From a virus: a stretch of 64,000 nt of DNA. A program made the translations under genes and the position numbers. Every line of letters starts with the position of its first letter. Positions within the stretch are counted from its first letter, which is position 1. Below are positions 5,454 through 35,013 of the stretch, piece by piece. The stretch lies in the IMG/VR virus record IMGVR_UViG_3300047673_000554, positions 15,598-79,597 of that record. The stretch is one strand, 5' to 3'. The notes beneath the pieces were generated by a model, which saw nothing but the letters and a program-made list of their open reading frames with translations, searched no databases and was not told the origin of the DNA.

Positions 5454-5959
5454 AGATCCTCCGGATTGAAAGGCCCATCGCCCGATTCAACGTCGAATAC
5501 CAGCGAGCCCGGCGGCTCATTCGGCCAGGGCCACTCCTCAACACCCAGGTAGAGTTGGTGAGTCCATTCCACTAACCAGACCACGTAGCCATCCAGCTCC
5601 GGCTTGGTCCAGTCCTGCATCGCCTGGCCAAACTCGGCGGGCTCTACCTCAAGCCCCCACGTTTGCAGTCGTAACAACACAGCCAATTGGGCTGCAAGGT
5701 ACGCGGCTTGCTGCAAATGCTGTGGTCGTATCGGGTCGACAATAATCCGCGCTTCGAACTTGCAAACCAGAGTGGTTTGCCCCGTTCCAATGTCGACACC
5801 AGGTTCCATCTCAGCCAGCTCGATGAACACCGCCGGTAGTGCAATGCGATCCTTGATGTTGGGCCACGCCGTCACCGCTTGAACGCCCGGCAGATGATCC
5901 TTCAGGTTCTGTTCTATTGCCCGGTAGAGCTGGTCGAGACTAAAAGGCTCGTCAGACAT
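5450..5959 (-). CDS. Tail completion/terminator-like protein
   Basis: Position between head-tail connector genes and gpV; PAVFIEL motif. Confidence 0.55.
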
Positions 5960-6617
5960 TCGCCGTCCCCTTCAAATACTTTTGCAGCTCAAAGTTGAAT
6001 TCCTGCCGCAGGATTTCCAGCAGGCGCGCATCAGCGCGTTTAACCCAACTGTCGAAGTGCGGCTGGGCTTGTTCCAGTGACACCTTGGCTTTGGCCAGCG
6101 GAAAGCGATCGCCGTTTTCCGCCACCCACCCCGAACTGGGTCCACCGCCGGACGACACGGTGCTGTCGGGATAGTGATCCGCATTGAAGTGCTTGCTCGC
6201 GGTACGAATCCAGATATCGGGTTTGTTGCCGTAGACCTTCTTGAGAAAGGCGCCCTGGTAACGCCGGCCGGCCACCGACACGCCAGTGCCAGACTGCCGT
6301 GCCCGGCCGATACGACTGGACTCGATGGCATTCAAACCGAACCACAACTTGCCACTGGTGGCCCCGCCGGAGACCGGGTAGCTGCGCAAGCGCTGACGAA
6401 CCGCCGCCACGGCAATGCGTTCCTGCCGACTTACGGCCCGGGCAATGTGCGTGCGCAGCCAACCTAGCGTTTTGTTGATCGCCCGACGTTGGGCGGCGGC
6501 GGCCGCCTTGGGCACCAGCTTGGCGAAGTCCTGGAACGCTTTCAGGTCCGCCATCGAGGACTGGATGGAAATCATCCCACCACCGGCCGAGGGCTTGAAG
6601 TGACTGCCGACACTCAT
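5952..6617 (-). CDS. Minor tail protein (lambda gpZ-like)
   Basis: RRAINKT...AF motif and position after head closure gene. Confidence 0.6.
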   Translation of the reverse strand: MSVGSHFKPSAGGGMISIQSSMADLKAFQDFAKLVPKAAAAAQRRAINKTLGWLRTHIARAVSRQERIAVAAVRQRLRSYPVSGGATSGKLWFGLNAIESSRIGRARQSGTGVSVAGRRYQGAFLKKVYGNKPDIWIRTASKHFNADHYPDSTVSSGGGPSSGWVAENGDRFPLAKAKVSLEQAQPHFDSWVKRADARLLEILRQEFNFELQKYLKGTANV

Positions 6618-6934
6618 GGGCGCATCCTCAGAATCAAGGCGACCAGACCGTCACCGCTCGGCTCCAGCTGCAACAGGTCGTAATCGCCACCGCCATCCAG
6701 CGCGGGCAGATCGATGCTGACCAGCATGCCCTGCTCCATGCCGTGCGAATCGCTGACGCGGATCTCGAACCGCGGCTCACGCAAACCGGTGTTCAGCTTG
6801 CCGAACTTGGGCTGCAACCACGGAGCGGCGAACATACCCAACACCGGTTCTTCGCGACCCTCGATCCGTGCGGTATCGCCCAGCGTTTCGAACACCACTG
6901 CGTCCACCTCGGCAATTAGATCGCGAAAGCTCAT
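6614..6934 (-). CDS. Head-tail joining protein
   Basis: Directly after major capsid gene; 106 aa, DG..LIL C-terminus. Confidence 0.65.
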   Translation of the reverse strand: MSFRDLIAEVDAVVFETLGDTARIEGREEPVLGMFAAPWLQPKFGKLNTGLREPRFEIRVSDSHGMEQGMLVSIDLPALDGGGDYDLLQLEPSGDGLVALILRMRP

Positions 6935-6936
6935 GG

Positions 6937-7932
6937 TCAGAGCTCCAGCAGGATCTGGGCGCGCGGCCGGGTGCACAAGTGCAGCGGGTTGGACTGGGCT
7001 TCGCCGGCCATGCCCTTGCCGAACTGCATCGGCTCAATCTTGCTGTAATACGGAATGCCTTGGGTGTTAACCGTTTCCATGTAGTCAGCCGGTGCGAACA
7101 CTGAGATGTACAGATCAGGAACACCTTCAGGAACCAGCAGCGCCTTATCGTCGTGGACGAAAGAGACGCCCGCAACTTTGCCACGGTAGCGCTCCCAGAT
7201 GATGCCGCCGAACTCGAAGCTTTCCCGGGCATCACCACGCAACGCCGCTGCCTGTTGGCTGTTGAGGTAAGTCTCTTTGACCGAATCGTGAACGATCAGA
7301 CTGTTCCAGAAATGCTTGCCGCAGAACGCGCGGGAACCCGTGCTGGTGACGGCACCGAGTGCGTCCTCCTGCATGTCCAGCGCTTCGACACATTGAACAC
7401 GCAGCTCGGTGTTGGGGTCCGTCAGGCCCATGGAGAGCTTCTGACGCTCCACACCGAAACGATCATAGAGGTTCAACAGCACCGTCGAACCGTCGGCATC
7501 AAGGATCACGCCATTGAGTGCGCCCATGCGCTGAAACTCGTGGGTTGCGTCCAACTGGCGGCGCGCTTTGGCCAGGCGGGCATTGACCACATCTTGCACG
7601 GCCTGCAACTCGGTGCGGGTACCGAAGGCGCGAATGCCCTGGATCTCGTCGGCCTTGATGGTGAAGCGTTCCGGCAGGTGCACGGTGTTGAAGGGAATCA
7701 GGTTGCGCTTGCTGGCGGCGACCACCAGACCAGAGCCACCGCGCTCACCGGCCGGCACCAGCGCCAGGGTGTCGCCGTCCTTTTCGATCTGTACGGTCAG
7801 GGTGTTGATCCCTTCCTCGCGAAACAGGCCCAGGGCGCTGATACGGCCCGGCAGGTAGGGTTGATCGTTGAGTGCAGCAGTCAGCGCGGTAACGGTAAAC
7901 GCTTCGTCGTCAAAAATGGCGATCTCGGCCAT
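6937..7932 (-). CDS. Major capsid protein (lambda gpE family)
   Basis: Follows gpD-like gene; FAPADYMETVNT.G.P.Y and QSNPLHLCTRP. Confidence 0.9.
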   Translation of the reverse strand: MAEIAIFDDEAFTVTALTAALNDQPYLPGRISALGLFREEGINTLTVQIEKDGDTLALVPAGERGGSGLVVAASKRNLIPFNTVHLPERFTIKADEIQGIRAFGTRTELQAVQDVVNARLAKARRQLDATHEFQRMGALNGVILDADGSTVLLNLYDRFGVERQKLSMGLTDPNTELRVQCVEALDMQEDALGAVTSTGSRAFCGKHFWNSLIVHDSVKETYLNSQQAAALRGDARESFEFGGIIWERYRGKVAGVSFVHDDKALLVPEGVPDLYISVFAPADYMETVNTQGIPYYSKIEPMQFGKGMAGEAQSNPLHLCTRPRAQILLEL

Positions 7933-8339: not shown

Positions 8340-9496
8340 GGTCTTGCTCCTTTCGCGCCGCGCGCAGTTCCAGATTGGGCCGCTTGACGCGAAGCCCAGA
8401 TCGAGGTGGGATCAGGTTGTTTGGCCAGCACCTTGGGGGCTGGGTCGTCATCCAGCGGCAGACTGTTATCGATTTCGAAGCCCTTGCCGCTGGTGACAAT
8501 TTTGTCGAACAGACGCGCCCGAACTGCTGCAGCATCCAACCCCGCCGCAACGTATTCAGCGCTGAACTCCGGTAAACGAGCCGCCACGCAGAGATCATTC
8601 ACGGCCTTGGCACGTGCCAACCCGGCCAAGACGATCTCTTCGCTTTCGAGCTGGGTCGAACTGAGCAACGGCTCGACCAGATTGGAGATGCCCGCCGCCG
8701 TGCAGCGCTGGGAGATCATCAGTGCCAACTTGGCCGAATCGACCACCGGCGGCACCAATGGCGGATCGACCGGATCCAGCTCCAGATCCGGATCCGCTTC
8801 CGGTGGCTCGTCGAGCTGGGCCAACAACTCAGCCGGCGTATGCTGGTAACGCTGCAACACACCACCTTGGCCAAGGCAGGCATTGACCTTAATGCCGTCG
8901 CCGACTTCATCGGCCAAGCCCAAGGCCACGGCCTCATTCGCGGTGAGCCAGGTTTCAGCGGCAACCAGCCGTCGCAGTTCGACCTCATCGATTTCCGGCG
9001 CCTTCGCTTTGTAGGCTGCGATGATCGCCTCCATCGTCTGGTCGAGCGCATCGGCCACCTTGCGGAAGTCTTCGGCATCCCCGGTGGCGTAGGTCCAGGG
9101 GTTGTGAATCATCAACATGGCATTGGCCGCAATCACAACCTTATGCGCGCCGCACACCGCCACGCTGGCGGCACTGGCGGCCAGCGCATCAACACGACCG
9201 GTGCAACGCTCAGCCAGACGCGACAACGCGTTGTGCATAGCCAGCCCGTCGAACAAATCGCCGCCGATGCTGTTGAACGCCGCGATCACCGGCGATACAC
9301 CGTCATCCATGGCCCGCAGGTCTTGCACGAACTGATTGGCCGTAATGCCCCAGGTACCGATCTCGCCATAGACAAAGACCTCAATCACCCGCTCGGCAGC
9401 TTCGCCGCTGGCCTGCACGGCATACCAGGTTTTGTCCTGAACCGGCACACGCTGGCCGGCGCGGTTGTAAATGCGCGGTCGCGCTTTTTTGCTCAT
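8336..9496 (-). CDS. ClpP-like prohead protease/scaffold
   Basis: YGEIG, NSIGGDLF, AASAAS, MIHNPW, ETWLTA. Confidence 0.92.
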   Translation of the reverse strand: MSKKARPRIYNRAGQRVPVQDKTWYAVQASGEAAERVIEVFVYGEIGTWGITANQFVQDLRAMDDGVSPVIAAFNSIGGDLFDGLAMHNALSRLAERCTGRVDALAASAASVAVCGAHKVVIAANAMLMIHNPWTYATGDAEDFRKVADALDQTMEAIIAAYKAKAPEIDEVELRRLVAAETWLTANEAVALGLADEVGDGIKVNACLGQGGVLQRYQHTPAELLAQLDEPPEADPDLELDPVDPPLVPPVVDSAKLALMISQRCTAAGISNLVEPLLSSTQLESEEIVLAGLARAKAVNDLCVAARLPEFSAEYVAAGLDAAAVRARLFDKIVTSGKGFEIDNSLPLDDDPAPKVLAKQPDPTSIWASRQAAQSGTARGAKGARP

Positions 9497-10974: not shown

Positions 10975-11181
10975 TTAGAGTCCTTTGCCCCCGTGGTAAA
11001 GCCGAACCGCACGCGAACGCGGTCCGGCAGCGTTGACCAGCGACGAACGAATCTCTTCGCGTGCTCTAAGCAGTTCGTCGACGGTGCGGTACTCCACGGT
11101 ACGGTCGGTGTAACGCACGGTTTTCTCACCGCGAGCGATGGCCGCCTCAACCGCGTCGAGGTGCTTCTGGGTAAATGACAT
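10975..11181 (-). CDS. Head-tail joining protein (lambda gpW-like)
   Basis: AIARGEKTVRY.DRTVEYRT; between terL and portal. Confidence 0.85.
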   Translation of the reverse strand: MSFTQKHLDAVEAAIARGEKTVRYTDRTVEYRTVDELLRAREEIRSSLVNAAGPRSRAVRLYHGGKGL

Positions 11182-19561: not shown

Positions 19562-22054
19562 CTACCGGTTTTTCACCCTAAATGGAACCGTGTACATATC
19601 ACAAAAATCAGAAGCGCGAAGTTTAGCGGCGATCAATTTTTGTCTTATCGCAACCGCATCACCCAACTCATTACTGCTTGCTACTGAATTAATGAATTTC
19701 CGAACAGACTCTCTAAACTCTCCAAGCTTTTCCCGTGTCATGACACGAATATTTTGGTTAGGTGAAGCAGCGTATTCGAACAACGAATATGGGTGCACCA
19801 AAATTGGAGTATAAGCACTCGAGTGATCATAACGCTCCTCAAACCACTCACAAGAGCCATTAAGCTGATTACAGTAATACTTGGTTATAGTTTCAACCAC
19901 AGCCTCATTTTTACATTCAATCACAAAATAATTTAACTCTCCAACTTTCCACAGTACATCAGGCCCCTTTTGGTACTCTTGCTCCGGGCGTTGACTACGG
20001 AAGCCTAAATACCTAGCTACATCCTTCATCCTTGCTTCAAACAATTCGGAACTATCAAGCTTAAAGTCCAGCCCCTCCAACACCCCATTTATTTCCACTA
20101 CAAGCTTATTTGGATCTTGAAACGTTTTAGTCAAAAACTCACTACATGCTTTAGCCTGATCCAGCACCGCCCCAGAAATTTTATGATATTGAATACCTTC
20201 GATAGGCTTCAATAGCCTTCTATTGTCCCCAACAGCAGACATTTGAATTTTTTGAGCAGAGGCTTGATCTAGCAAATTAGTGTATTCCGCATAATGCTGC
20301 TTAACCAAACCTCTAAACTTCAAGTCAGCAACTGCATTAACTAACTCCTTTAACTCTTGAGCCGCAGCAGCAAAATTGCTATTGCACGCATAATCGTATG
20401 CTTTTCTGAGTGACAAGATATTACTATCAATGGAGTTTTCTTGAGTGTAAGCCAAAGTTGCCAACACCCCCTTACTTGCTGCAACCCACTCCTCTTTGCG
20501 CGCCCAGCAATAATTTAACGTATCTGTAATCTCTGATAATTTCTTTCCTTTGATCTGTTCAGAAACCTGCTCGGACAGGGCTAACTGGGCTCTAGTACCC
20601 GGTGAAAACTTGCTCATAGCACCTTGCGCATAAAGCTTGCTGGTCAGATCTCTACCCATTAAAAAAACAACACAGTAATCATCATTTGATCTAACGCCAC
20701 GCCCCATACCCTGTTCAACGCGTTGAATTACCTGATTTACGTCCCGATCACTTCCCAATAAAACCGTTTGATTGACCCTGTCGATTTTGCTGCGAACATC
20801 TGGAAACCCATCTATCACTAACAGCCTGCAGGCATCACCGGGCAGGTCAATCCCATCATACTTATTAACAAGTACGACCAAACCAACTTTACCGGCCTTT
20901 AGCTTATCCACCCCCTCGTAAAGATTATTTGCAAATAGAACTAAATTAGCGCTATCCCTCCAGTAATCAGCACGCGCCTTCGAAGGTACAATAACTACCA
21001 CATTCATATATTCAGCGATGAACTTGCAATATTTCTTTATATGATCATCAGCTAGTTCAGAATTAATTACTTGAGGCAGGAGTATCATACGATCCCCAAC
21101 ATCACCCGCTGAATCAGGAACGATAGGACGCTGTAGAAATTTATCATCAACCCCGAAATGACTAGCCAAAATTGAATCATCAACTAACGTGGCGGTCATG
21201 AACAACTTACGATCGGCATCAATGATACTAGGAATCATATGAATCGGAATTGCATGCGGGGTGATCTCGATACTCTTCGCCCCAACGACACAATGACTCA
21301 ATTTTGGAAACTCTTTCACAAGAGGCCACACAAACTGTAAATAATCTTCTTTTTTATGCGCAATTAGAATTTTACAAACTTCTGATATTTTACTCTGCCA
21401 AACCCAATAGGGAACTTGCATCAACGCAGCTGAACTACCACTTTCGACTTCAAGAGCTTTTGATTCGCATTGGTTATGGAGAGATTCCTTAAATAAATCA
21501 TACAGCGCGGTATATACCGCGGTGCCCTGCGGAATCTCGATTGTAAACTGCTCTTCAACGTAGCCAATACATGCATGAGCATCATCTACGACAAGACTAG
21601 CAATTTTTATTTTTACACCTTCGTCACCAACGCCGAACGCTGATCGGCCATTGACCAATTTGAAAATATTCGCCACGAGAATTGCTTTACCGGAAATAAA
21701 GCGATGTGAATGTACATCGTCAGTAACTTCAACACCCAGTTCTTCAGCAGCATCCATCACTTGTTTTACAAGATAAGGATCAGGGCAAATATATACAGCG
21801 GGAAACTTTCCCTCATTTATACAACTTTTTAACGCAAGTAAACCAACGACAGTTTTTCCGCTACCAGTGTTTAACTTTAGAACTAAACTATTTTCATTTC
21901 GACGCTCGAACCACTTCGACCAAACCTGAGATTGGACATCTCGAGGATATTGAAACTTTTGAGCATTTTTTTTGGGTAAAGCATTAAAAATTTCCCTGGG
22001 CTGCAGGACGGTATCAACCGTTACACCTGTTCCAATACGTGTGAAGTCAATCAT
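19562..22054 (-). CDS. SF2 (DinG-like) helicase with C-terminal PD-(D/E)xK nuclease; Hna-like anti-phage protein
   Basis: NTGSGKT, VDDAH, MTAT, DGIDLP, QGMGRGVR; C-terminal GPDVLW...IECK; 830 aa, AT-rich. Confidence 0.8.
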   Translation of the reverse strand: MIDFTRIGTGVTVDTVLQPREIFNALPKKNAQKFQYPRDVQSQVWSKWFERRNENSLVLKLNTGSGKTVVGLLALKSCINEGKFPAVYICPDPYLVKQVMDAAEELGVEVTDDVHSHRFISGKAILVANIFKLVNGRSAFGVGDEGVKIKIASLVVDDAHACIGYVEEQFTIEIPQGTAVYTALYDLFKESLHNQCESKALEVESGSSAALMQVPYWVWQSKISEVCKILIAHKKEDYLQFVWPLVKEFPKLSHCVVGAKSIEITPHAIPIHMIPSIIDADRKLFMTATLVDDSILASHFGVDDKFLQRPIVPDSAGDVGDRMILLPQVINSELADDHIKKYCKFIAEYMNVVVIVPSKARADYWRDSANLVLFANNLYEGVDKLKAGKVGLVVLVNKYDGIDLPGDACRLLVIDGFPDVRSKIDRVNQTVLLGSDRDVNQVIQRVEQGMGRGVRSNDDYCVVFLMGRDLTSKLYAQGAMSKFSPGTRAQLALSEQVSEQIKGKKLSEITDTLNYCWARKEEWVAASKGVLATLAYTQENSIDSNILSLRKAYDYACNSNFAAAAQELKELVNAVADLKFRGLVKQHYAEYTNLLDQASAQKIQMSAVGDNRRLLKPIEGIQYHKISGAVLDQAKACSEFLTKTFQDPNKLVVEINGVLEGLDFKLDSSELFEARMKDVARYLGFRSQRPEQEYQKGPDVLWKVGELNYFVIECKNEAVVETITKYYCNQLNGSCEWFEERYDHSSAYTPILVHPYSLFEYAASPNQNIRVMTREKLGEFRESVRKFINSVASSNELGDAVAIRQKLIAAKLRASDFCDMYTVPFRVKNR

Positions 22055-28816: not shown

Positions 28817-30634
28817 ATGATTGTAACTTCAGCAATGGCTGCCGCAGCCATACGCAGCCTCACTCCGCTGATTGGTGCAGCCTACAAAGGTGCAAGCAAA
28901 TCATTGAAATCCAGTTTTTCAAACTGGTCCAATACGAATAGTAATGAAGAAATTGCGAATCATCTTTTACAGATCGGCGTTGTTAAAACAATCTGGTCAT
29001 CAGGAAAAAGCAAGTTTATTAAAGACTTTTATTACCCATCAAAGATTGACGAAATCAACGATGGCGAGGGCATTGACCATGTCGATCAACTCCCTAAAGG
29101 AAACATAGTTATTCAAGGCATAGTTGGCCAGGGCAAATCTATGTTCATGCGCCACCTAGCTTGTTCTGCCATTGGAGAAATTGGGAACTCTTATATACCG
29201 GTATTCATTGAACTTCAAAAGATAAGTTCAAAAAAAGGCTTGAAACAGATCATATTTGAAAACTTGGAACTATTGGGAATCACAGTAACTGAAGAGAGTG
29301 TTAAATATCTAGCATCAAAAGGCTACTTAGTCTTTCTGTTAGATGGATTTGATGAAGTCGTAGATGCATGCATCAATGAAACTGTTGAAGCGCTTGATGA
29401 ATTTCAGAGACGCTATCCAAAACTTAAAATCATTGTCTCATCACGCCCCGGTAGTGGCATCCAGCAGATGGTAGGCTTCGAAGTTCTAGATCTGACGCCT
29501 TTAACGGAAGATGATTACGAACCTTTCTTAAAGTGCCTCCAGCTAGATACCGTAAAAAGAGAGGCGTTGATAGCCGCAACTGAATCTGCTCCAGATTCAG
29601 TTAAAGAAATTATAAGCACACCATTAATGCTCACGTTAGTTGTTTGGGTTTACGAATCCGAACAAGAAATTCCATCTACGCTAAGAGATTTCTTTGAAAA
29701 ACTATTCCATGTCGTTTTCACCAGACACGATAGTTTAAAGGTTGGCTTTACAAGACAACACTACAGCGGTCTTTCGGAAACAAAACTCCTACAACTTTTT
29801 GAGGCGTTCTGTTTTATGATCGTTCAAGAAAATTTCGGAAGAAGTTTAACACGACCAGAATTTAATACTGCATTCACCAATGCACTTGAGTATTCAGAAG
29901 CAACAAATTGCGATGTGGACCATTTCAGAAAAGACATTGTAAAAGTCGCATGCCTGATGCTGGAAGATGGCCTTGACCTAACTACTTTTCTGCACAAAAG
30001 CATTTTGGATTATTATGCCGCCGCATTTATATTACACAGCGAAGAAGAGTTATCCGAACTATTTTATTCGGACGCTTTTGAAGGATTTAGCCAATGGCAG
30101 CATGTGTTATTCTTCTTAGCTGACGCTGACAAATACCGATATTCAAAACATTATTTACTCACCCATTTCCAACCGGGCATTGATGAAATCGATCAGTTAC
30201 TTAAATCAAAGAGTGACGATATTTTATTACGACACATAAATAAGAAGCATACTGGCTTCACTTACTTAATTAGTGAAAAAGGGCAAATGCTTGGTTGGTC
30301 AGGCGCCAAATCGGCAGCAACGCAAATTGGTATCTATTTTGAAAGAGCATTAATTTACGGAGGCCAAAAAATATTCAATGGGAGTTTACCTGCCACCCAG
30401 CTAGCCCAAATAATAAAAGTTGCGGCTGTACAAGGGAAAAACAAACCTGCAGGTAGAAACTATTATCACATTGAAATCAGCGAGGTTATGCGCATTATTG
30501 GCACTGATTCATACTGGCGCGAAATTGCTCTCATCGATCTTGAATTACACAAAAAAATGGACGAGGCACAACGCACAGTTGAACATCAAAACAAAAAGAA
30601 AAAAATCTTTGGTAAAAAACTGAAGCCCCGCTAA
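28817..30634 (+). CDS. NACHT-family STAND NTPase (bacterial NLR-related), short C-terminal domain
   Basis: GIVGQGKS, LLDGFDE, VSSR, TPLMLTL, FLHKSILDYYAA. Confidence 0.9.
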   Translation: MIVTSAMAAAAIRSLTPLIGAAYKGASKSLKSSFSNWSNTNSNEEIANHLLQIGVVKTIWSSGKSKFIKDFYYPSKIDEINDGEGIDHVDQLPKGNIVIQGIVGQGKSMFMRHLACSAIGEIGNSYIPVFIELQKISSKKGLKQIIFENLELLGITVTEESVKYLASKGYLVFLLDGFDEVVDACINETVEALDEFQRRYPKLKIIVSSRPGSGIQQMVGFEVLDLTPLTEDDYEPFLKCLQLDTVKREALIAATESAPDSVKEIISTPLMLTLVVWVYESEQEIPSTLRDFFEKLFHVVFTRHDSLKVGFTRQHYSGLSETKLLQLFEAFCFMIVQENFGRSLTRPEFNTAFTNALEYSEATNCDVDHFRKDIVKVACLMLEDGLDLTTFLHKSILDYYAAAFILHSEEELSELFYSDAFEGFSQWQHVLFFLADADKYRYSKHYLLTHFQPGIDEIDQLLKSKSDDILLRHINKKHTGFTYLISEKGQMLGWSGAKSAATQIGIYFERALIYGGQKIFNGSLPATQLAQIIKVAAVQGKNKPAGRNYYHIEISEVMRIIGTDSYWREIALIDLELHKKMDEAQRTVEHQNKKKKIFGKKLKPR

Positions 30635-30772
30635 AACGTCATGGCGTGATACTGGTGCAAAACATTTCCTTGCCCGACATCACTATCGGCAAGTGTTTCC
30701 CTTTTGCGTCGGAGGTGTCGCCGTAGGATTCGTTAATGACGGTTTTGGAGACTTTAATAACCCTCCCCGCTT

Positions 30773-30829
30773 CCTCGTTATCAGCTTCCCAAGCTGATAA
30801 CGAGGGTTCGATTCCCTTCACCCGCTCCA
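30773..30829 (+). pseudogene. 3' half of tRNA-Gly(CCC), att-core remnant
   Basis: CAGCTTCCCAAGCTG anticodon arm, GAGGGTTCGATTCCCTT T-arm, CACCCGCTCCA end; D-arm and 5' acceptor strand absent. Confidence 0.88.
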
Positions 30830-30969: not shown

Positions 30970-31281
30970 GGGGGTTCGAAAAAATAGTAATATCAGTAAT
31001 ACCCCCTCCGTAAAACAGCCACAGCCCTTATCGATCAAGGCGTCCAGCGATTCATGGGGAAGGCGATATTTAAGCGATAGAAAGGCGATAGTATTACCTT
31101 TCTATAAAGCTATATTTCCATTCTTTGAAACCCAATGAATCCGGGGGTTTGGCCGAAATATTACTTTTCATATCGCCTCGTATTACCTTGCTTTGTAATA
31201 CCGAAAGCCTAGTAAAACCGGGGGCTCCAAACCCGCTACCTATAAGGTATCGCTGATATCGCTCTTTTTGAAAATGCCCCC
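30970..31281. repeat. Iteron-like array (GYRATA x12) with imperfect terminal inverted repeats; candidate origin
   Basis: GTAATA/GCGATA mostly forward on left, TATTAC/TATCGC mostly reverse on right. Confidence 0.65.
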
Positions 31282-31373: not shown

Positions 31374-31604
31374 ATGGCAAGCGAGTATTCACTGGCGGAT
31401 GTGCTGGAACGGATTTACCACAATCAGTTGGCCTTGGAAGCGGCAGTGATGGAGCTGACTCGGTGGGCAGAGCAGCAGAATGCAGTAGATGTGGGCGATA
31501 ACGTGCGGGGAGCGCTCTACACTATTGGCGAAAACGCAGGTCATATCAAACAAGGCTTGGCTCGACTGAGCGGGTTCCCGCCAGATCTTCGTGAGGCCAA
31601 TTAG
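31374..31604 (+). CDS. Small helical hypothetical protein
   Basis: AAGGAG SD; MASEYSLADVLERIYHNQLALEAA..., a type I recall from Pseudomonas prophage ends. Confidence 0.7.
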   Translation: MASEYSLADVLERIYHNQLALEAAVMELTRWAEQQNAVDVGDNVRGALYTIGENAGHIKQGLARLSGFPPDLREAN

Positions 31605-31707
31605 ACGATGGCTTAGCGTCTTATGAACAGTTCTCCCCGCTAGGCAATCGACAGTAATTGGCCAAAAGCAGTCATTCAATCCTCTACAAAAGCAGGGGCG
31701 ATTCACC

Positions 31708-32358
31708 ATGCAGGATCACGTACTCAAGCGCATCGATGAACTGATTTCGCGGGGCAATGCCGCCGCCCGGTCACAATCATCCCAAGACTATTGGATGAAA
31801 GACGTCGTGGAGGCACAGAGTTGGTTCTCGTCCGCGGCTAACGCGATACACCAGGTCGCCCCGCCTGGCAGTTTCTACATGGCAGAGCTGCAGAGGATCG
31901 TCGAGCATGAGCAACTCCAAAGCGGCTTCCCGATTTCCTCCGTCGAAAAACTCCTTGGTCTGCTTCAGTCGGTGCAGCTTGAAGCGCGAGCTGGGTTGCT
32001 GGTCAAACTCGAGGACCAAGTAGTCGCCTCAGCGTTCGATGACTTTCTTGATCACGCGACGCAGTATCACAAGGCCGGCAAGGTCAACGAAGCTGCTGTC
32101 CTGGCTTCTGCGGTGCTTGAAGACACTATCAAGCGCATAGCACGGAAGTCTGAGATTGCGGTTGGTGGTGTGTCTCTCGAACCTCTCATTGATGAACTGA
32201 CCAAGCGCAGCGTCTTTACGCAGGTGAAGGCGAAGCGTTTGAAATCATACGCAGCGGTTCGCAACCACGCTCTTCACGCGGAGTGGGAGAAATTGGACAT
32301 TAGAGACGTTGGTGCACAACTCTCTGGGCTTCGTGAACTTCTAGATGAGCATCTTTGA
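31708..32358 (+). CDS. HEPN/DUF4145-domain protein (putative RNase)
   Basis: AAVLASAVLED helix and RNHALH (Rx4H) motif. Confidence 0.8.
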   Translation: MQDHVLKRIDELISRGNAAARSQSSQDYWMKDVVEAQSWFSSAANAIHQVAPPGSFYMAELQRIVEHEQLQSGFPISSVEKLLGLLQSVQLEARAGLLVKLEDQVVASAFDDFLDHATQYHKAGKVNEAAVLASAVLEDTIKRIARKSEIAVGGVSLEPLIDELTKRSVFTQVKAKRLKSYAAVRNHALHAEWEKLDIRDVGAQLSGLRELLDEHL

Positions 32359-32365
32359 CGCTGAC

Positions 32366-32423
32366 GCCTAACCCGTCGTTCCAGCCGACCGCCTTCGGCG
32401 GCGGTTGAACTCCAACGTTATGC
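32366..32423 (+). mobile_element. Integron attC site (59-base element)
   Basis: R'' GCCTAAC ... GTTCCAGCCGACCGCC-TTCG-GCGGCGGTTGAAC ... R' GTTATGC, 58 bp, 7 bp after the stop codon. Confidence 0.88.
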
Positions 32424-32887
32424 AAAAGGAGTTCGCCGCCCCCTGAAATTTCTGACTGAATCGGACTTAGTTTTTAGACAAGCCGGTATGTCAGTAATGG
32501 ATCGATTGCAGTCGTCTGAATTATCCGTACACGGGTGATCACCTGTGAAATGCGCTATAGGGCCTGAAAGCCCCCTGTGTCGGGGCTTCCGGGCAAGCTA
32601 CCCCTCGTCCTAAAACACTTCAAAGCGCCCCTGATACGAACTTTTGAGAATTCGAAAACTCAATAAGACGCTTATTTTCCAGCGTCACACCCTTGTAAAT
32701 TGGGGGTTCTGCAGATCGACCACCGACCTGGCTTGCTCTGGACGATACGCAAAGCCACTGCACTTTTTTGCAAAACCTTGCACACCGTGAAATTGCAAAA
32801 TGCGCCACTAACTGCTCGGCGGGCTTGGGCGCGACCTTGACTTGCGCAACACCCGCCTTTGCACAATAAAGGGACGCAAAGCCCGTC

Positions 32888-32907
32888 GGCGGGAGGGGGA
32901 TAAGTGC
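32888..32907 (+). other. Possible cos site of prophage 2
   Basis: GGCGGGAGGGGGATAAGTGC resembles P2 cos GGCGAGGCGGGGAAAGCAC; non-coding, between tail end and att as in HP1-type maps. Confidence 0.4.
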
Positions 32908-33291
32908 TTTTTTAATCGTTTTTTTATCATCCAATGATTTTTTTGCTGTAGGACTGCGGTTACACACTACTGCGTTCATCAATACTGCAAGCGTCATCTT
33001 GATCAATCCTCGTTGCGATCGGCAGCCACACGGCGCCCCAGGCATCGCCGACTACATCGCACGATCAGCGTCCCTCCACCCATTGCGGCGCTCCAAGACG
33101 GCATCCTCAGGAGTGCATTTGTTCTCATTAGCCGCAAATGAGTGCGAAGGCTACAGCGCTGAATTTAGCTACCTTAGCCCTCCATAGCCGTTCGACAACC
33201 TCCAAACACCTTAACTCGCTCTAGCATTACACCCTTAGAAATGCTATCTAAATCGAAAGTCGTTTAAGTAATCAGCGTAGGAGTTAAATGG

Positions 33292-35013
33292 ATGTTTCAG
33301 CAACCTCAAATTTTTTTAATTGATACGGATGAAGATATTTCTAAGGCCATCCTTAAAAGCTGGTCTAATATTGGTACTGGAACGCTCGGCACCCCATATG
33401 AAACTCCTACTGATAGTGACTGGCGCCCAGTAATCCAAAATAAACCGCTGGGTAAATTTGAGGAATCAGATTTAATCATTGTTGATCTTTCATCAAAAAA
33501 ATTAGCACATCATGCACCAGGCGAAAAGCACACACCGACAGGAGAAGTAGATCTATGGGCGAAGTGTGACAAAGGCTGGATTGATGCCAGAGTTCGCACA
33601 GTTTTATCCGCAAAAGCAGATCTGAATAGAATTGTAAGGAATGGCGGCGTACTTATCATTTTTGCCGCACCTGATAGCCCAATGAATTTTCAATGGGCAA
33701 CAGTTAGCAACTATCGAATGTCAACTCGAAGTACCGTTGATGGTGGAGTATGGAATCTTGCCGACCCACTAGATCGATTGAGAGTTGATGCCGAGTCTGG
33801 ATCCGTAATTAACGTAACAGACAACTCCCCAATAGGATCGCTTTTAAAACGGCATTTGACAGGTGCCGAATTCACATGTGTGTTCAGCTCTGTATGGGAT
33901 CACGACTCAACATGGAAATCATTAGCGACTAATAAGTATGGCGTGAGTGTTGCGGTCTCTGCTGAACATGGCAACGGACATATTTTCGTACTCCCTCAGT
34001 TAATAGAAAAAGCACGGTTCATCGAAGAGTTATTAGGGTCAATTCTTCCTGAAATAGTACCCAACCTATTTCCAGATATCGAAAAAGGCAAATGGACTCA
34101 TCGGCCGGAATACGAACTTGAGCGTGTTAAAGAATTAGAATCTCGAAAAGCCTTAGTAATCGCCGAGGCAGAAAAACAACTCAATAACATACAACAAGAA
34201 ATCGATGAAAATCGTGCCGCGAATGGCTGGCTACATGATCTAATTACGGGAACAGGTGATGACCTAGTTAACGCTATAAAAATCGCCCTTTCAGAACTAG
34301 GCTTTCAGCGTGTTATAGACGTTGATGAAATACGAGACGCTGAAGGCAAAAGCCGACGCGAAGACCTTCGAATAGAAGACGGCGACCCGCTCTTGATTGT
34401 CGACATCAAAGGCGTCGGCGGGAGAGCTGGTGACGATGACATTATGCAAGCAAACAAACACGCCTTAATTAACATGAGGGAACTAGACAGAACCAACATT
34501 CAAGGTTTATCGATAATTAACCAGCAAAGACATTTACCCCCATTAGAAAGGGATAACAACGAAGCTTTTCGAAAGGAAATAGTAGATTTTGCTGGTGAAA
34601 CAGGCCTAGGGCTACTAACTGCATTCGACCTTTATCGAATAGTTGTAAACAAACAAAGACACGGCTGGTTACCAGATTGGGTAAAACCGCTTTTTTTTAG
34701 GCATCAACGCATTACTGCTGTGCCTACGCACTATAAATATCTAGGAACAATCTCCAAAGTCTTTACCGAAGTTTTTGGCATGCATATATTAGAAAACGAA
34801 ATCGAAGTAGGCGACTACTTAGCGGTGGAGGGAGACATTTATTTTGAGGAGGTCGAAGTTCTGTCAATACAAGTAGAAAATGTTGAAGTAACAAGTGCTG
34901 CCGTTGGGGATCGTGCGGGCTTCAAATGGCCACAAAGTGCAGCGAAGCTTCGAGAGAATATGCGCGTCTATGCAATACCTCGCTCATTTCAAGACTCGAG
35001 GTTGCAGCCTTAA
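33292..35013 (+). CDS. Multidomain protein: alpha/beta N-domain, coiled coil, PD-(D/E)xK nuclease, elongation-factor-like beta-barrel
   Basis: AGGAG SD; REDLRIE...IVDIKG; C-terminal YLGTISKVF...IEVGD...VLSIQVENVEVTSAAVGDRAGFK. Confidence 0.7.
   Translation: MFQQPQIFLIDTDEDISKAILKSWSNIGTGTLGTPYETPTDSDWRPVIQNKPLGKFEESDLIIVDLSSKKLAHHAPGEKHTPTGEVDLWAKCDKGWIDARVRTVLSAKADLNRIVRNGGVLIIFAAPDSPMNFQWATVSNYRMSTRSTVDGGVWNLADPLDRLRVDAESGSVINVTDNSPIGSLLKRHLTGAEFTCVFSSVWDHDSTWKSLATNKYGVSVAVSAEHGNGHIFVLPQLIEKARFIEELLGSILPEIVPNLFPDIEKGKWTHRPEYELERVKELESRKALVIAEAEKQLNNIQQEIDENRAANGWLHDLITGTGDDLVNAIKIALSELGFQRVIDVDEIRDAEGKSRREDLRIEDGDPLLIVDIKGVGGRAGDDDIMQANKHALINMRELDRTNIQGLSIINQQRHLPPLERDNNEAFRKEIVDFAGETGLGLLTAFDLYRIVVNKQRHGWLPDWVKPLFFRHQRITAVPTHYKYLGTISKVFTEVFGMHILENEIEVGDYLAVEGDIYFEEVEVLSIQVENVEVTSAAVGDRAGFKWPQSAAKLRENMRVYAIPRSFQDSRLQP

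What the first reader, a model, noticed from the sequence alone, without database searches (positions are those of the whole stretch)
31708..32435. Integron gene cassette (HEPN gene + intact attC) stranded in prophage cargo with no integron integrase
Seen: 7 bp after the stop of an Rx4H HEPN-type gene is a 58-bp attC (GCCTAAC...hairpin...GTTATGC). R' is not the perfect complement of R'' and is followed by AAAAGGAG, an SD with no ORF. No intI or attI is visible in the window. Knowledge: in cassette arrays R' beyond the G belongs to the next cassette, and integron cassettes often encode phage defence. Inference: this was lifted out of an array together with the first bases of the next cassette, so a temperate phage region now carries an integron-derived toxin/defence gene and a potential IntI docking site.
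Basis: partly seen in the sequence, partly recalled or inferred. Interest (0 to 1): 0.75.

Follow-up and report, generated by a model that had tools for sequence, protein, structure and literature searches.

The report
Orphan integron cassette in prophage hotspot
A putative HEPN-type RNase gene that still carries an intact integron recombination site (attC) sits, with no integron nearby, in the cargo slot next to the probable packaging (cos) site of a P2-family Pseudomonas prophage, so phage cargo hotspots can draw genes from the integron cassette pool.

Summary
A 216-aa gene (31708-32358) has an invariant R-N-x-A-L-H motif and a HEPN fold. Seven bases after its stop lies a 58-bp site (32366-32423). 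Two attC covariance models built without this site each score it 54.8 bits (E about 1e-11). It is the only significant hit in 64 kb on either strand.

It is 85-87% identical to real attC sites of class 1 integron cassettes. Relatives of the gene lie in attC arrays in many phyla, once next to an intI. No integron integrase is in the 79.6-kb provirus record. This is therefore a SALIN (single attC lacking an integrase), a described category.

New points:
- The unit sits in the variable slot between the att-proximal gene and the probable cos site of a Peduoviridae prophage. This is the positional analogue of the P2 old/tin defence hotspot.
- Its present ends are not IntI junctions. The 5' end is a dispersed 60-nt Pseudomonas repeat ("E") that abuts the ATG. 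The 3' end runs 73-82 nt past the attC crossover point.
- The same E-gene-attC block occurs in two chromosomal Pseudomonas sites, where the attC is decayed or truncated.

Defence or toxin function is inferred, not shown. This scan has noted phage-borne integron arrays and HEPN-like cassettes before, on other DNA.

The parts
30711..30826 (+). tRNA-like fragment, the probable att end of prophage B (context)
   Evidence: Rfam tRNA 24.8 bits, below the gathering score of 29. ARAGORN finds no tRNA. Related proviruses share this stretch.
31374..31604 (+). 76-aa phage gene (phrog_12397), the left border of cargo slot 1
   Evidence: PHROGs E 1.9e-30. 201 IMG/VR stretches encode relatives, often at the very end of the provirus contig.
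31647..31705 (+). 'E' element: a dispersed ~60-nt Pseudomonas repeat that forms the 5' end of the unit. Its CAGGGG serves as the SD, and it ends 2 nt before the ATG.
   Evidence: nhmmer 66.6 bits. Found in 55 of 401 genus genomes. The alignment shows a sharp 3' edge at ATTCA.
31708..32358 (+). 216-aa gene: N-terminal helical domain (1-95) plus C-terminal HEPN domain (96-216) with R185-N186-x-A-L-H190
   Evidence: ORF. 451 relatives with the motif invariant in the 19 aligned. AF2 pLDDT 87.7. HEPN structures match at Z 10-13. Sub-threshold DUF4145/HepT/HEPN Pfam hits.
32366..32423 (+). attC site. R'' 32366-32372, spacer 32373-32377, L'' arm 32378-32387 with bulged C (32381/32382), bulged A 32388, 5-bp terminal stem and TTC loop 32389-32401, L' arm 32402-32410, spacer 32411-32416, R' 32417-32423.
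   Evidence: CM R1 and CM R2 each 54.8 bits. Fold. 85-87% identical to aacA34, gcu and Polaromonas attCs, with compensatory changes.
32424..32505 (+). 3' extension past the attC crossover point, with SD-like AAAAGGAG (32424-32431). No ORF; origin unknown.
   Evidence: Shared only with L006 (85% over 60 nt). No other match in any locus, plasmid or phage.
32492..32513 (+). Right junction with the phage backbone: a stretch common to the window, L006 and phage L080. It is a 16/22 direct repeat of 31652-31673.
   Evidence: The E profile does not recognise it.
32756..32943 (+). Conserved non-coding element, the probable cos region of prophage B and the right border of cargo slot 1
   Evidence: Shared by 17 related provirus loci. 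The two ends of the linear GenBank genome PQ412991.1 map to 32758-32897 and 32888-32925, so its termini fall inside this element at about 32888-32897.
33292..35013 (+). 573-aa orphan gene in cargo slot 2 (cos to tail genes); context
   Evidence: No Pfam, PHROGs or PADLOC match, and no relative in IMG/VR.

Best explanation
The stretch 31647-32505 is a relic integron gene cassette that now travels as ordinary phage cargo.

Origin. A promoterless cassette (a HEPN-domain gene plus its attC) left an integron array, probably in a beta- or gammaproteobacterium. In a Pseudomonas lineage its 5' boundary and leader were replaced by a 60-nt dispersed repeat (E). E now supplies the ribosome-binding site and abuts the ATG.

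Spread. This E-gene-attC block, together with about 80 nt of unknown 3' flank, then moved by non-IntI recombination into at least three contexts. The recombination was homologous or microhomology-mediated. The contexts are two chromosomal accessory regions and the slot between the att-proximal gene and the probable cos site of a P2-family (Peduoviridae) prophage. That slot is the positional analogue of the P2 old/tin hotspot.

The attC. In the prophage copy the attC is fully intact: R and L boxes, unpaired spacer, two bulged bases, short terminal stem. In principle it could still be bound and cut by an integron integrase supplied in trans.

The protein. It is most likely a HEPN RNase whose N-terminal helical domain gates or targets it. 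It would then act as a single-gene toxin or abortive-infection effector that benefits the lysogen.

Shown: attC identity, cassette ancestry of the family, location in a variable phage slot, absence of IntI, non-IntI boundaries, HEPN fold and motif.
Inferred: RNase activity, a defence role, recombination competence, and the order of events.
For: attC:
- Two CMs give 54.8 bits each, and the site is the sole significant hit in the window.
- In a blastn of 31600-32500 against plasmids, only the attC part matches. The hits are terminal attCs of aacA34 (intI1-blaIMP-14-aacA34-qacEdelta1) and of a gcu cassette in intI1 arrays.
- The alignment shows compensatory changes, GCCGAC/GGCGGC versus GCGGAC/GGCCGC.
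- Top-strand bulges C and A correspond to bottom-strand extrahelical G and T. The architecture is as described in PMC11641012.

Cassette family:
- R2 finds 43 attCs in 76 loci, all on the gene's strand.
- At least 15 relatives have an attC within about 100 nt of their stop (10-25 nt in 13 of them).
- Arrays of 3 to 6 attCs occur in L012, L013, L023, L025, L049, L055 and L068.
- Array-borne relatives carry canonical GTTAGCC 5' boundaries.
- L055 has an IntI1-like gene (49-60% identity) directly upstream.

No IntI: none in the provirus record, nor in the genomes that hold L005 and L006.

Phage slot:
- Prophage B shows 75% nt identity to Pseudomonas phage UFJF_PfPro, Peduoviridae.
- L080 matches the window up to 31646 and again from 32496, with 1.9 kb of other cargo in between. 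Other relatives have only about 230-350 nt there.
- The ends of PQ412991.1 fall inside the 32756-32943 element.
- Cos-adjacent hotspots of P2-like phages hold defence systems (PMC9122126).

Re-packaging:
- Homology with L005 and L006 starts at 31660. It ends inside the attC (L005) or at about 32505 (L006).
- E is found in 55 of 401 genus genomes.

Foreign origin: 51% GC versus about 61% for the phage.

HEPN.
Against: - No function was tested. There is no PADLOC hit and no Pfam hit above threshold. Z 10-13 for a helical bundle is near the tool's caution zone.
- No other IMG/VR contig carries a relative, so there is no sign that phages select for this gene.
- No true empty site of this phage lineage was found.
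- Slot 1 in L080 holds non-defence-looking cargo, a response-regulator-like gene, so location alone does not imply defence.
- The host genome is not available, so an integron elsewhere in the host cannot be excluded.
- The identification of cos rests on one GenBank record's termini, plus my memory of the P2 cos sequence.
Confidence: 0.8

Rival explanations
1. In-situ SALIN formation. An integron integrase inserted a free circular cassette directly into the phage genome at a secondary (attG) site, as shown experimentally for bacterial genomes.
For: SALINs are common (3400 in 21,105 genomes), and IntI-driven insertion outside att sites has been demonstrated (10.1101/2022.09.11.507474). The attC keeps G|TT, and R' diverges from the complement of R'' exactly beyond the crossover point. 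55 of 401 genus genomes encode an IntI, one of them the unpublished G372.
Against: The left junction is the E repeat, not G|TTRRRY plus the cassette leader. Sequence past G|TT (32419-32505) is shared with a chromosomal locus (L006) but not with the phage backbone (L080), so the inserted block is larger than a cassette.
Confidence: 0.07
2. One reading: a piece of an integron array (one cassette plus the start of the next) was cut out and pasted directly into the prophage.
For: A 73-82-nt extension lies beyond the attC, with an SD-like AAAAGGAG. In L006 an ATG follows the SD. Its first 18 nt loosely resemble the unit's own 5' end, read by eye.
Against: The extension matches no array, plasmid or phage sequence. 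It has only a 7-codon ORF in L006 and none here. There is no second attC. The 5' end is E, and the same block exists in non-phage chromosomal sites, so transfer was via an intermediate Pseudomonas module.
Confidence: 0.12
3. The hairpin is not an attC but a terminator, a REP-like element or a chance palindrome behind an ordinary phage moron.
For: Folding energy is not exceptional (z -1.35 and -0.72). It sits where a terminator would.
Against: There is no T-run and no terminator call. Two CMs give 54.8 bits. It is 85-87% identical to attCs inside intI1 arrays. Homologues carry attCs in arrays.
Confidence: 0.01
4. The protein is not a toxin or defence RNase but a benign HEPN-fold protein, such as a nucleotide-binding or regulatory subunit. 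The cassette would then be neutral hitch-hiking cargo.
For: No partner antitoxin gene lies in the unit. There is no PADLOC match. Many HEPN-fold proteins (KNTase_C, sacsin) are not nucleases. Slot cargo can be metabolic.
Against: R, N and H of the RNase motif are invariant in the 19 aligned relatives, which span 50-100% identity. The best fold matches are HepT toxins, Csm6 and AbiV. Neighbours in L006 are an OLD-family ATPase-nuclease and RlaP. The gene is intact in all three contexts while the attC decays.
Confidence: 0.3

Closest known systems
SALIN (single attC site lacking an integron integrase; Loot et al., bioRxiv 10.1101/2022.09.11.507474; detected with the IntegronFinder 2 option --calin-threshold 1, PMC9024848)
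   Same: One CDS plus one attC, with no other attC and no IntI nearby. Decay or loss of the attC in sister copies matches their remark that folded attCs are easily deleted.
   Different: The boundaries are not those of an attC x attG insertion. The unit lies inside a prophage cargo slot, and its 5' end has been replaced by another repeat.
Short attC sites of class 1 integron cassettes (aacA34, catB3 and gcu types, 58-60 bp)
   Same: Same length and box layout. 85% identity to the aacA34 attC and 87% to a Polaromonas JS666 plasmid attC. Same bulged positions.
   Different: R' reads GTTATGC, with T where a purine is expected. No neighbouring cassette or attI.
HEPN RNase toxins and effectors (HepT/MNT toxins 5yep, 6m6u, 7ae2; AbiV 9bj5; Csm6 HEPN domain)
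   Same: Four-helix HEPN fold over residues 96-216 (Z 10-13, rmsd 2.4-2.8 A over 116-117 residues). An R-x4-H motif with N after R.
   Different: An extra 95-residue helical N-terminal domain. No MNT-type antitoxin or partner gene. Only sub-threshold Pfam matches (DUF4145, HepT-like). Activity untested.
Cos-adjacent hotspot of P2-like phages (old/tin locus; Rousset et al. 2022, PMC9122126; PMC13586616)
   Same: A variable slot directly beside the probable cos site of a P2-family prophage, with cargo that differs between close relatives.
   Different: A Pseudomonas phage with a different gene order: the slot lies between an att-proximal small gene and cos, not between gpA and gpQ. The cargo here has traceable integron ancestry, which those papers do not report (0 mentions of integron or attC in PMC13586616).
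Phage-borne integrons and CALINs (earlier scan note e1-5983933)
   Same: Integron-type cassettes inside a phage genome.
   Different: Those have arrays, attI and an IntI. Here there is a single fossil cassette and no integrase.

Membership tests
attC recombination site | R'' (RYYYAAC) and R' (GTTRRRY) boxes in inverted orientation | tested here: met
   GCCTAAC fits 7 of 7 positions. GTTATGC fits 6 of 7, and the conserved G|TT is present. 6 of 7 R''/R' pairs form.
attC recombination site | Hairpin with L box, unpaired central spacer, 2-3 extrahelical bases and a variable terminal structure (PMC11641012) | tested here: met
   The fold shows a 4+5+5-bp stem with bulged C and A (G and T on the bottom strand) and a TTC loop. 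The CM alignments place spacers of 5 and 6 nt.
attC recombination site | Scores with an attC covariance model | tested here: met
   My own models R1 and R2 give 54.8 bits, E 1e-11 and 3e-12. IntegronFinder's own model was not available.
attC recombination site | Lies just 3' of a CDS in the same orientation | tested here: met
   7 nt after the stop, + strand.
attC recombination site | Recombined by an integron integrase as a folded bottom strand | not testable with these tools
   Needs a suicide-conjugation or IntI assay.
Integron (complete) or CALIN | IntI with attI nearby, or at least 2 attC sites | tested here: not met
   There is one attC in 64 kb. The best TIGR02249 match in the 79.6-kb record is 16 bits.
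SALIN | CDS with a single attC and no other att site or integrase nearby | tested here: met
SALIN formed by attC x attG insertion | The cassette is bounded by G|TT junctions on both sides of an otherwise continuous target | tested here: not met
   The left end is the E repeat abutting the ATG. The block shared with L006 runs about 82 nt past G|TT.
HEPN superfamily | Conserved R-x4-6-H motif | tested here: met
   R185, N186 and H190 are invariant in 19 relatives down to 50% identity.
HEPN superfamily | Four-helix up-and-down HEPN fold | tested here: met
   Residues 96-216 match at Z 10-13 to 2hsb, 6m6u, 5yep, Csm6 and AbiV. The Foldseek top hits are all HEPN. Caveat: helical bundles can reach such Z values.
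HEPN superfamily | Pfam family membership above the gathering score | tested here: not met
   DUF4145 best E 2.3e-4 in 12 of 19 members, HepT-like in 4 of 19, HEPN in 1 of 19; the window's own protein scores 14.5 bits against the 23.1-bit gathering cut-off.
HEPN superfamily | Metal-independent RNase activity | not testable with these tools
   Biochemical assay needed.
P2-family cos-adjacent cargo hotspot | A variable gene content slot directly next to cos in related phages | tested here: met
   Slot contents differ between the window, L080 and more than 10 other loci. The termini of PQ412991.1 fall in the conserved element. That this element is cos has not been proven experimentally.

The most novel reading that the evidence does not exclude
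The 60-nt E repeat may be the handle of an undescribed Pseudomonas cargo-exchange system. E copies in direct orientation punctuate accessory and defence regions. Examples are E | AAA-ATPase pair | E | GajB-like plus GajA-like genes | E in L196, and E | 233-aa gene, GmrSD_N and RiboL-PSP-HEPN | E in L198. On this reading, modules bounded by E shuttle between chromosomal islands and P2-family prophage hotspots. The HEPN-attC unit would then be an integron cassette re-captured by a second cassette-like system, with the attC kept as a fossil.
Probability: 0.15. Interest if true: 0.75.

Novelty: new member of a known kind. Interest (0 to 1): 0.5.

Why it matters
Recent surveys of P2/P4 hotspots conclude that cargo is swapped very fast, but the routes of exchange with other mobile elements are unclear (PMC13586616). 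Here the attC acts as a molecular birthmark. It shows that one hotspot gene came from the integron cassette pool, and that it passed through chromosomal Pseudomonas accessory regions before reaching a phage.

This links two gene reservoirs that have each been shown to store anti-phage genes: integron cassettes and prophage hotspots. It also places an apparently intact IntI substrate on a transducible, inducible genome. Finally, it nominates a widespread, unannotated, single-gene HEPN family (451 relatives) for defence or toxin testing.

Tried and rejected
- Homodimer prediction gave no answer.
- A profile search of the PDB by sequence found nothing. PADLOC found nothing for the gene.
- GCTAGGC at 31639 was considered as the cassette's left R'. 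It was rejected because it is phage backbone; L080 has GCCAGCC there.
- GGCC at 31660 was considered as a remnant of GTTAGGCC. It was rejected because CGGCC is conserved in E copies unrelated to the gene.
- The weak CM hit at 31042-31082 (14.5 bits, R1) was considered as a decayed upstream attC. It disappears with R2.
- The right-hand 22-nt repeat (32492-32513) was considered as a second E copy. The E profile does not detect it, so it may be only a microhomology.
- E shows no conserved RNA structure and no sigma-70 consensus promoter on the + strand. It has no match in the plasmid or GenBank phage collections.
- The 82-nt 3' extension has no match beyond L006 and no ORF.
- A search for an empty site of this phage lineage found only L080 again.
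- No IMG/VR contig encodes a relative of the HEPN gene or of the 573-aa gene.
- The 74-aa gene next to int in phage UFJF_PfPro is not a homologue of the 76-aa gene.

Full report
OBSERVATION

The ORF 31708..32358 (+, 216 aa) ends with TGA at 32356-32358. Seven bases later, GCCTAAC...GTTATGC spans 32366-32423, which is 58 bp. AAAAGGAG follows at 32424-32431 with no ORF behind it. As single-stranded DNA the site folds into a 4+5+5-bp stem. The stem has two single-base bulges on the 5' arm (C, A), which correspond to G and T on the bottom strand. A TTC loop closes it. The folding energy is not exceptional (z -1.35 and -0.72), so stability alone proves nothing.

IS IT AN attC?

A blastn of 31600-32500 against 72,556 plasmids matched only the 58-bp site. 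The hits are real attCs:
- the end of the aacA34 cassette in intI1-blaIMP-14-aacA34-qacEdelta1;
- the end of a gcu cassette between blaIMP-45 and blaOXA-1 in another intI1 array;
- a site in Polaromonas JS666 plasmid 1, at 87% identity.

The alignment shows compensatory exchanges in the stem.

I built covariance model R1 from five class 1 attCs (catB3, aacA34, gcu, aac(6')-Ib4, blaOXA-1). The window's site was not included. With filters off, over the whole window and both strands, R1 gives 54.8 bits (E 1.1e-11) for 32366-32423. The next hit scores 14.5 bits.

A second model, R2, was built from 24 attCs that R1 found in unrelated chromosomal and metagenomic arrays. R2 gives 54.8 bits (E 3.3e-12), with the next hit at 11.2 bits.

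The layout matches the published description of attC sites: R box, L box, unpaired central spacer, extrahelical bases and variable terminal structure (PMC11641012).

IS THE GENE A CASSETTE GENE?

The protein has 451 relatives, nearly all 214-225 aa long, scattered over many phyla. R185, N186 and H190 are invariant in the 19 relatives I aligned.

In 75 genome loci, R2 finds attCs only on the gene's strand; counting the Polaromonas plasmid locus L003 as well, that is 43 of 43 hits in 76 loci. At least 15 relatives have an attC within about 100 nt of their stop (10-25 nt in 13 of them). Several lie in arrays of 3 to 6 attCs: L012, L013, L023, L025, L049, L055 and L068.

Array-borne relatives show the canonical 5' boundary GTTAGCC 15-35 nt before the ATG. 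In L055 (Acidovorax) the relative is the first cassette next to an IntI1-like gene. That gene shows 49-60% identity but is split over three frames.

IS IT HEPN?

Pfam gives only sub-threshold DUF4145, HepT-like and HEPN hits. An AF2 model has pLDDT 87.7. Over residues 96-216 it matches HEPN structures at Z 10-13: AF_0298, HepT toxins, Csm6 and AbiV. Residues 1-95 form a helical domain with no clear match.

WHERE IS IT?

The window is part of a 79.6-kb IMG/VR provirus record without an integron integrase. It holds two prophages.

Prophage B runs from about 30.8 kb to 64 kb. It is a Peduoviridae myovirus with 75% nt identity to Pseudomonas phage UFJF_PfPro.

Comparison with 80 related provirus loci shows a common backbone, in this order:
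- the 76-aa gene (31374-31604);
- a variable slot;
- a conserved 190-nt element (32756-32943);
- a second variable slot;
- the tail genes.

The two ends of the linear GenBank genome of UFJF_PfPro map inside the conserved element, overlapping at 32888-32897. The invariant GGCGGGAGGGGGATAAGTGC resembles the P2 cohesive end as I remember it. The element is therefore probably cos.

The HEPN unit fills slot 1. L080 matches the window up to 31646 and again from 32496, with 1.9 kb of different cargo in between. Other relatives have only 230-350 nt there.

Cos-adjacent slots of P2-like phages are known defence hotspots (PMC9122126).

HOW DID IT GET THERE?

Two chromosomal Pseudomonas loci carry the same gene at 96% and 93% aa identity: L005 (P. 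koreensis) and L006 (P. alkylphenolica). Their flanks are unrelated and non-phage. Neither genome has an IntI.

Homology starts at 31660 in both loci. It ends inside the attC in L005, where the attC is truncated after L''. It ends at about 32505 in L006. In L006 the attC has decayed to GTCGAAC...GTCATGC and scores 21.5 bits.

The moved block is therefore larger than a cassette on the 3' side.

On the 5' side, the roughly 60 nt before the ATG proved to be a dispersed repeat, which I call E. It is found in 55 of 401 sampled genomes of the genus. It has a sharp 3' edge at ATTCA, 2 nt before the ATG. The cassette's own 5' end has been replaced.

E copies in direct orientation flank accessory and defence modules elsewhere. 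In L196 they flank a GajA/GajB-like pair and an AAA-ATPase pair. In L198 they flank a GmrSD_N plus RiboL-PSP-HEPN pair. L006 has a second, inverted copy downstream of an OLD-family gene.

The right junction lies in a 17-22-nt stretch that the window, L006 and the phage backbone have in common. This suggests recombination at a microhomology. An IntI-made junction is not supported at either end.

COMPARISON WITH WHAT IS KNOWN

Single attCs without an integrase (SALINs) are described and common. Cassettes encoding defence systems are described (listings). Cos-adjacent phage hotspots are described.

What I did not find described is an attC-tagged cassette inside such a hotspot. The 2026 hotspot survey does not mention integrons. 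The finding is therefore a new member of a known kind, with a documented route.

IntI genes occur in 55 of 401 genus genomes. One of these is the unpublished G372; without it the count is 54 of 400. Meeting an integrase is therefore conceivable for this phage.

LIMITS

Function, recombination competence and the order of events are inferences.

Noticed in passing
window 31647-31705; L196:4872-4930, 7625-7678, 11070-11095; L198:5049-5112, 8341-8401; L195:4753-4815, 6470-6529; L006:10562-10622: 'E' is a roughly 60-nt dispersed repeat (consensus about CGGCCAGAAGCAGTCATTCAATGCTCTACAAAAnCAGGGGCGATTCA). It is found in 55 of 401 Pseudomonas-genus genomes, often as 2-3 direct copies 1.7-3.4 kb apart in low-GC regions, where it flanks defence-like modules (GajA/GajB-like pair, AAA ATPase pair, GmrSD_N plus HEPN). 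It has a sharp 3' edge and no conserved structure. It is absent from the plasmid and GenBank phage collections. Its nature is unknown.
   Followed up: partly
window 32756-32943: A conserved non-coding element in more than 17 related proviruses, with invariant GTCGGCGGGAGGGGGATAAGTGCTTTT. The termini of the linear genome PQ412991.1 fall inside it, so it is probably the cos site. Variable cargo slots lie on both sides of it.
   Followed up: partly
window 33292-35013: A 573-aa AT-rich orphan gene in the slot between the probable cos site and the tail genes. It has no Pfam, PHROGs or PADLOC match and no relative in IMG/VR.
   Followed up: partly
window 19562-22054 (-): An 830-aa low-GC gene matches the PADLOC candidate system PDC-S28 end to end (1045 bits) and phrog_16128. 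It is helicase-like cargo of prophage A.
   Followed up: no
window 28817-30634 and 30711-30826: A NACHT NTPase gene (Pfam E 3e-11, 39-43% GC) lies between the integrase of prophage A and a tRNA-like fragment (Rfam 24.8 bits, below threshold). The fragment probably marks the att end of prophage B. Related proviruses (L093) carry up to three tandem copies of the tRNA-fragment plus 76-aa-gene module.
   Followed up: partly
L003:5001-5058 and 5541-5627 (Polaromonas sp. JS666 plasmid 1, NC_007949.1): Two attC sites (R2: 58.3 and 33.5 bits) sit behind two unannotated genes, with no intI nearby. They lie between a PRTRC system and a SIR2 plus ATP-binding-protein pair. This is a small CALIN on a conjugative plasmid. 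Its first attC is the closest relative (87%) of the window's attC.
   Followed up: partly
L055:4939-5676 (-) and 6001-7929 (Acidovorax sp. FG27): An integron whose IntI1-like gene is split over three reading frames, so it is probably broken. A HEPN-family relative is the first of at least three cassettes.
   Followed up: no
window 31652-31673 and 32492-32513: A 22-nt imperfect direct repeat (16/22) lies exactly at the two ends of the inserted unit. The left copy is the start of E. The right copy is phage backbone and is also present in L006. It may be a recombination microhomology.
   Followed up: partly
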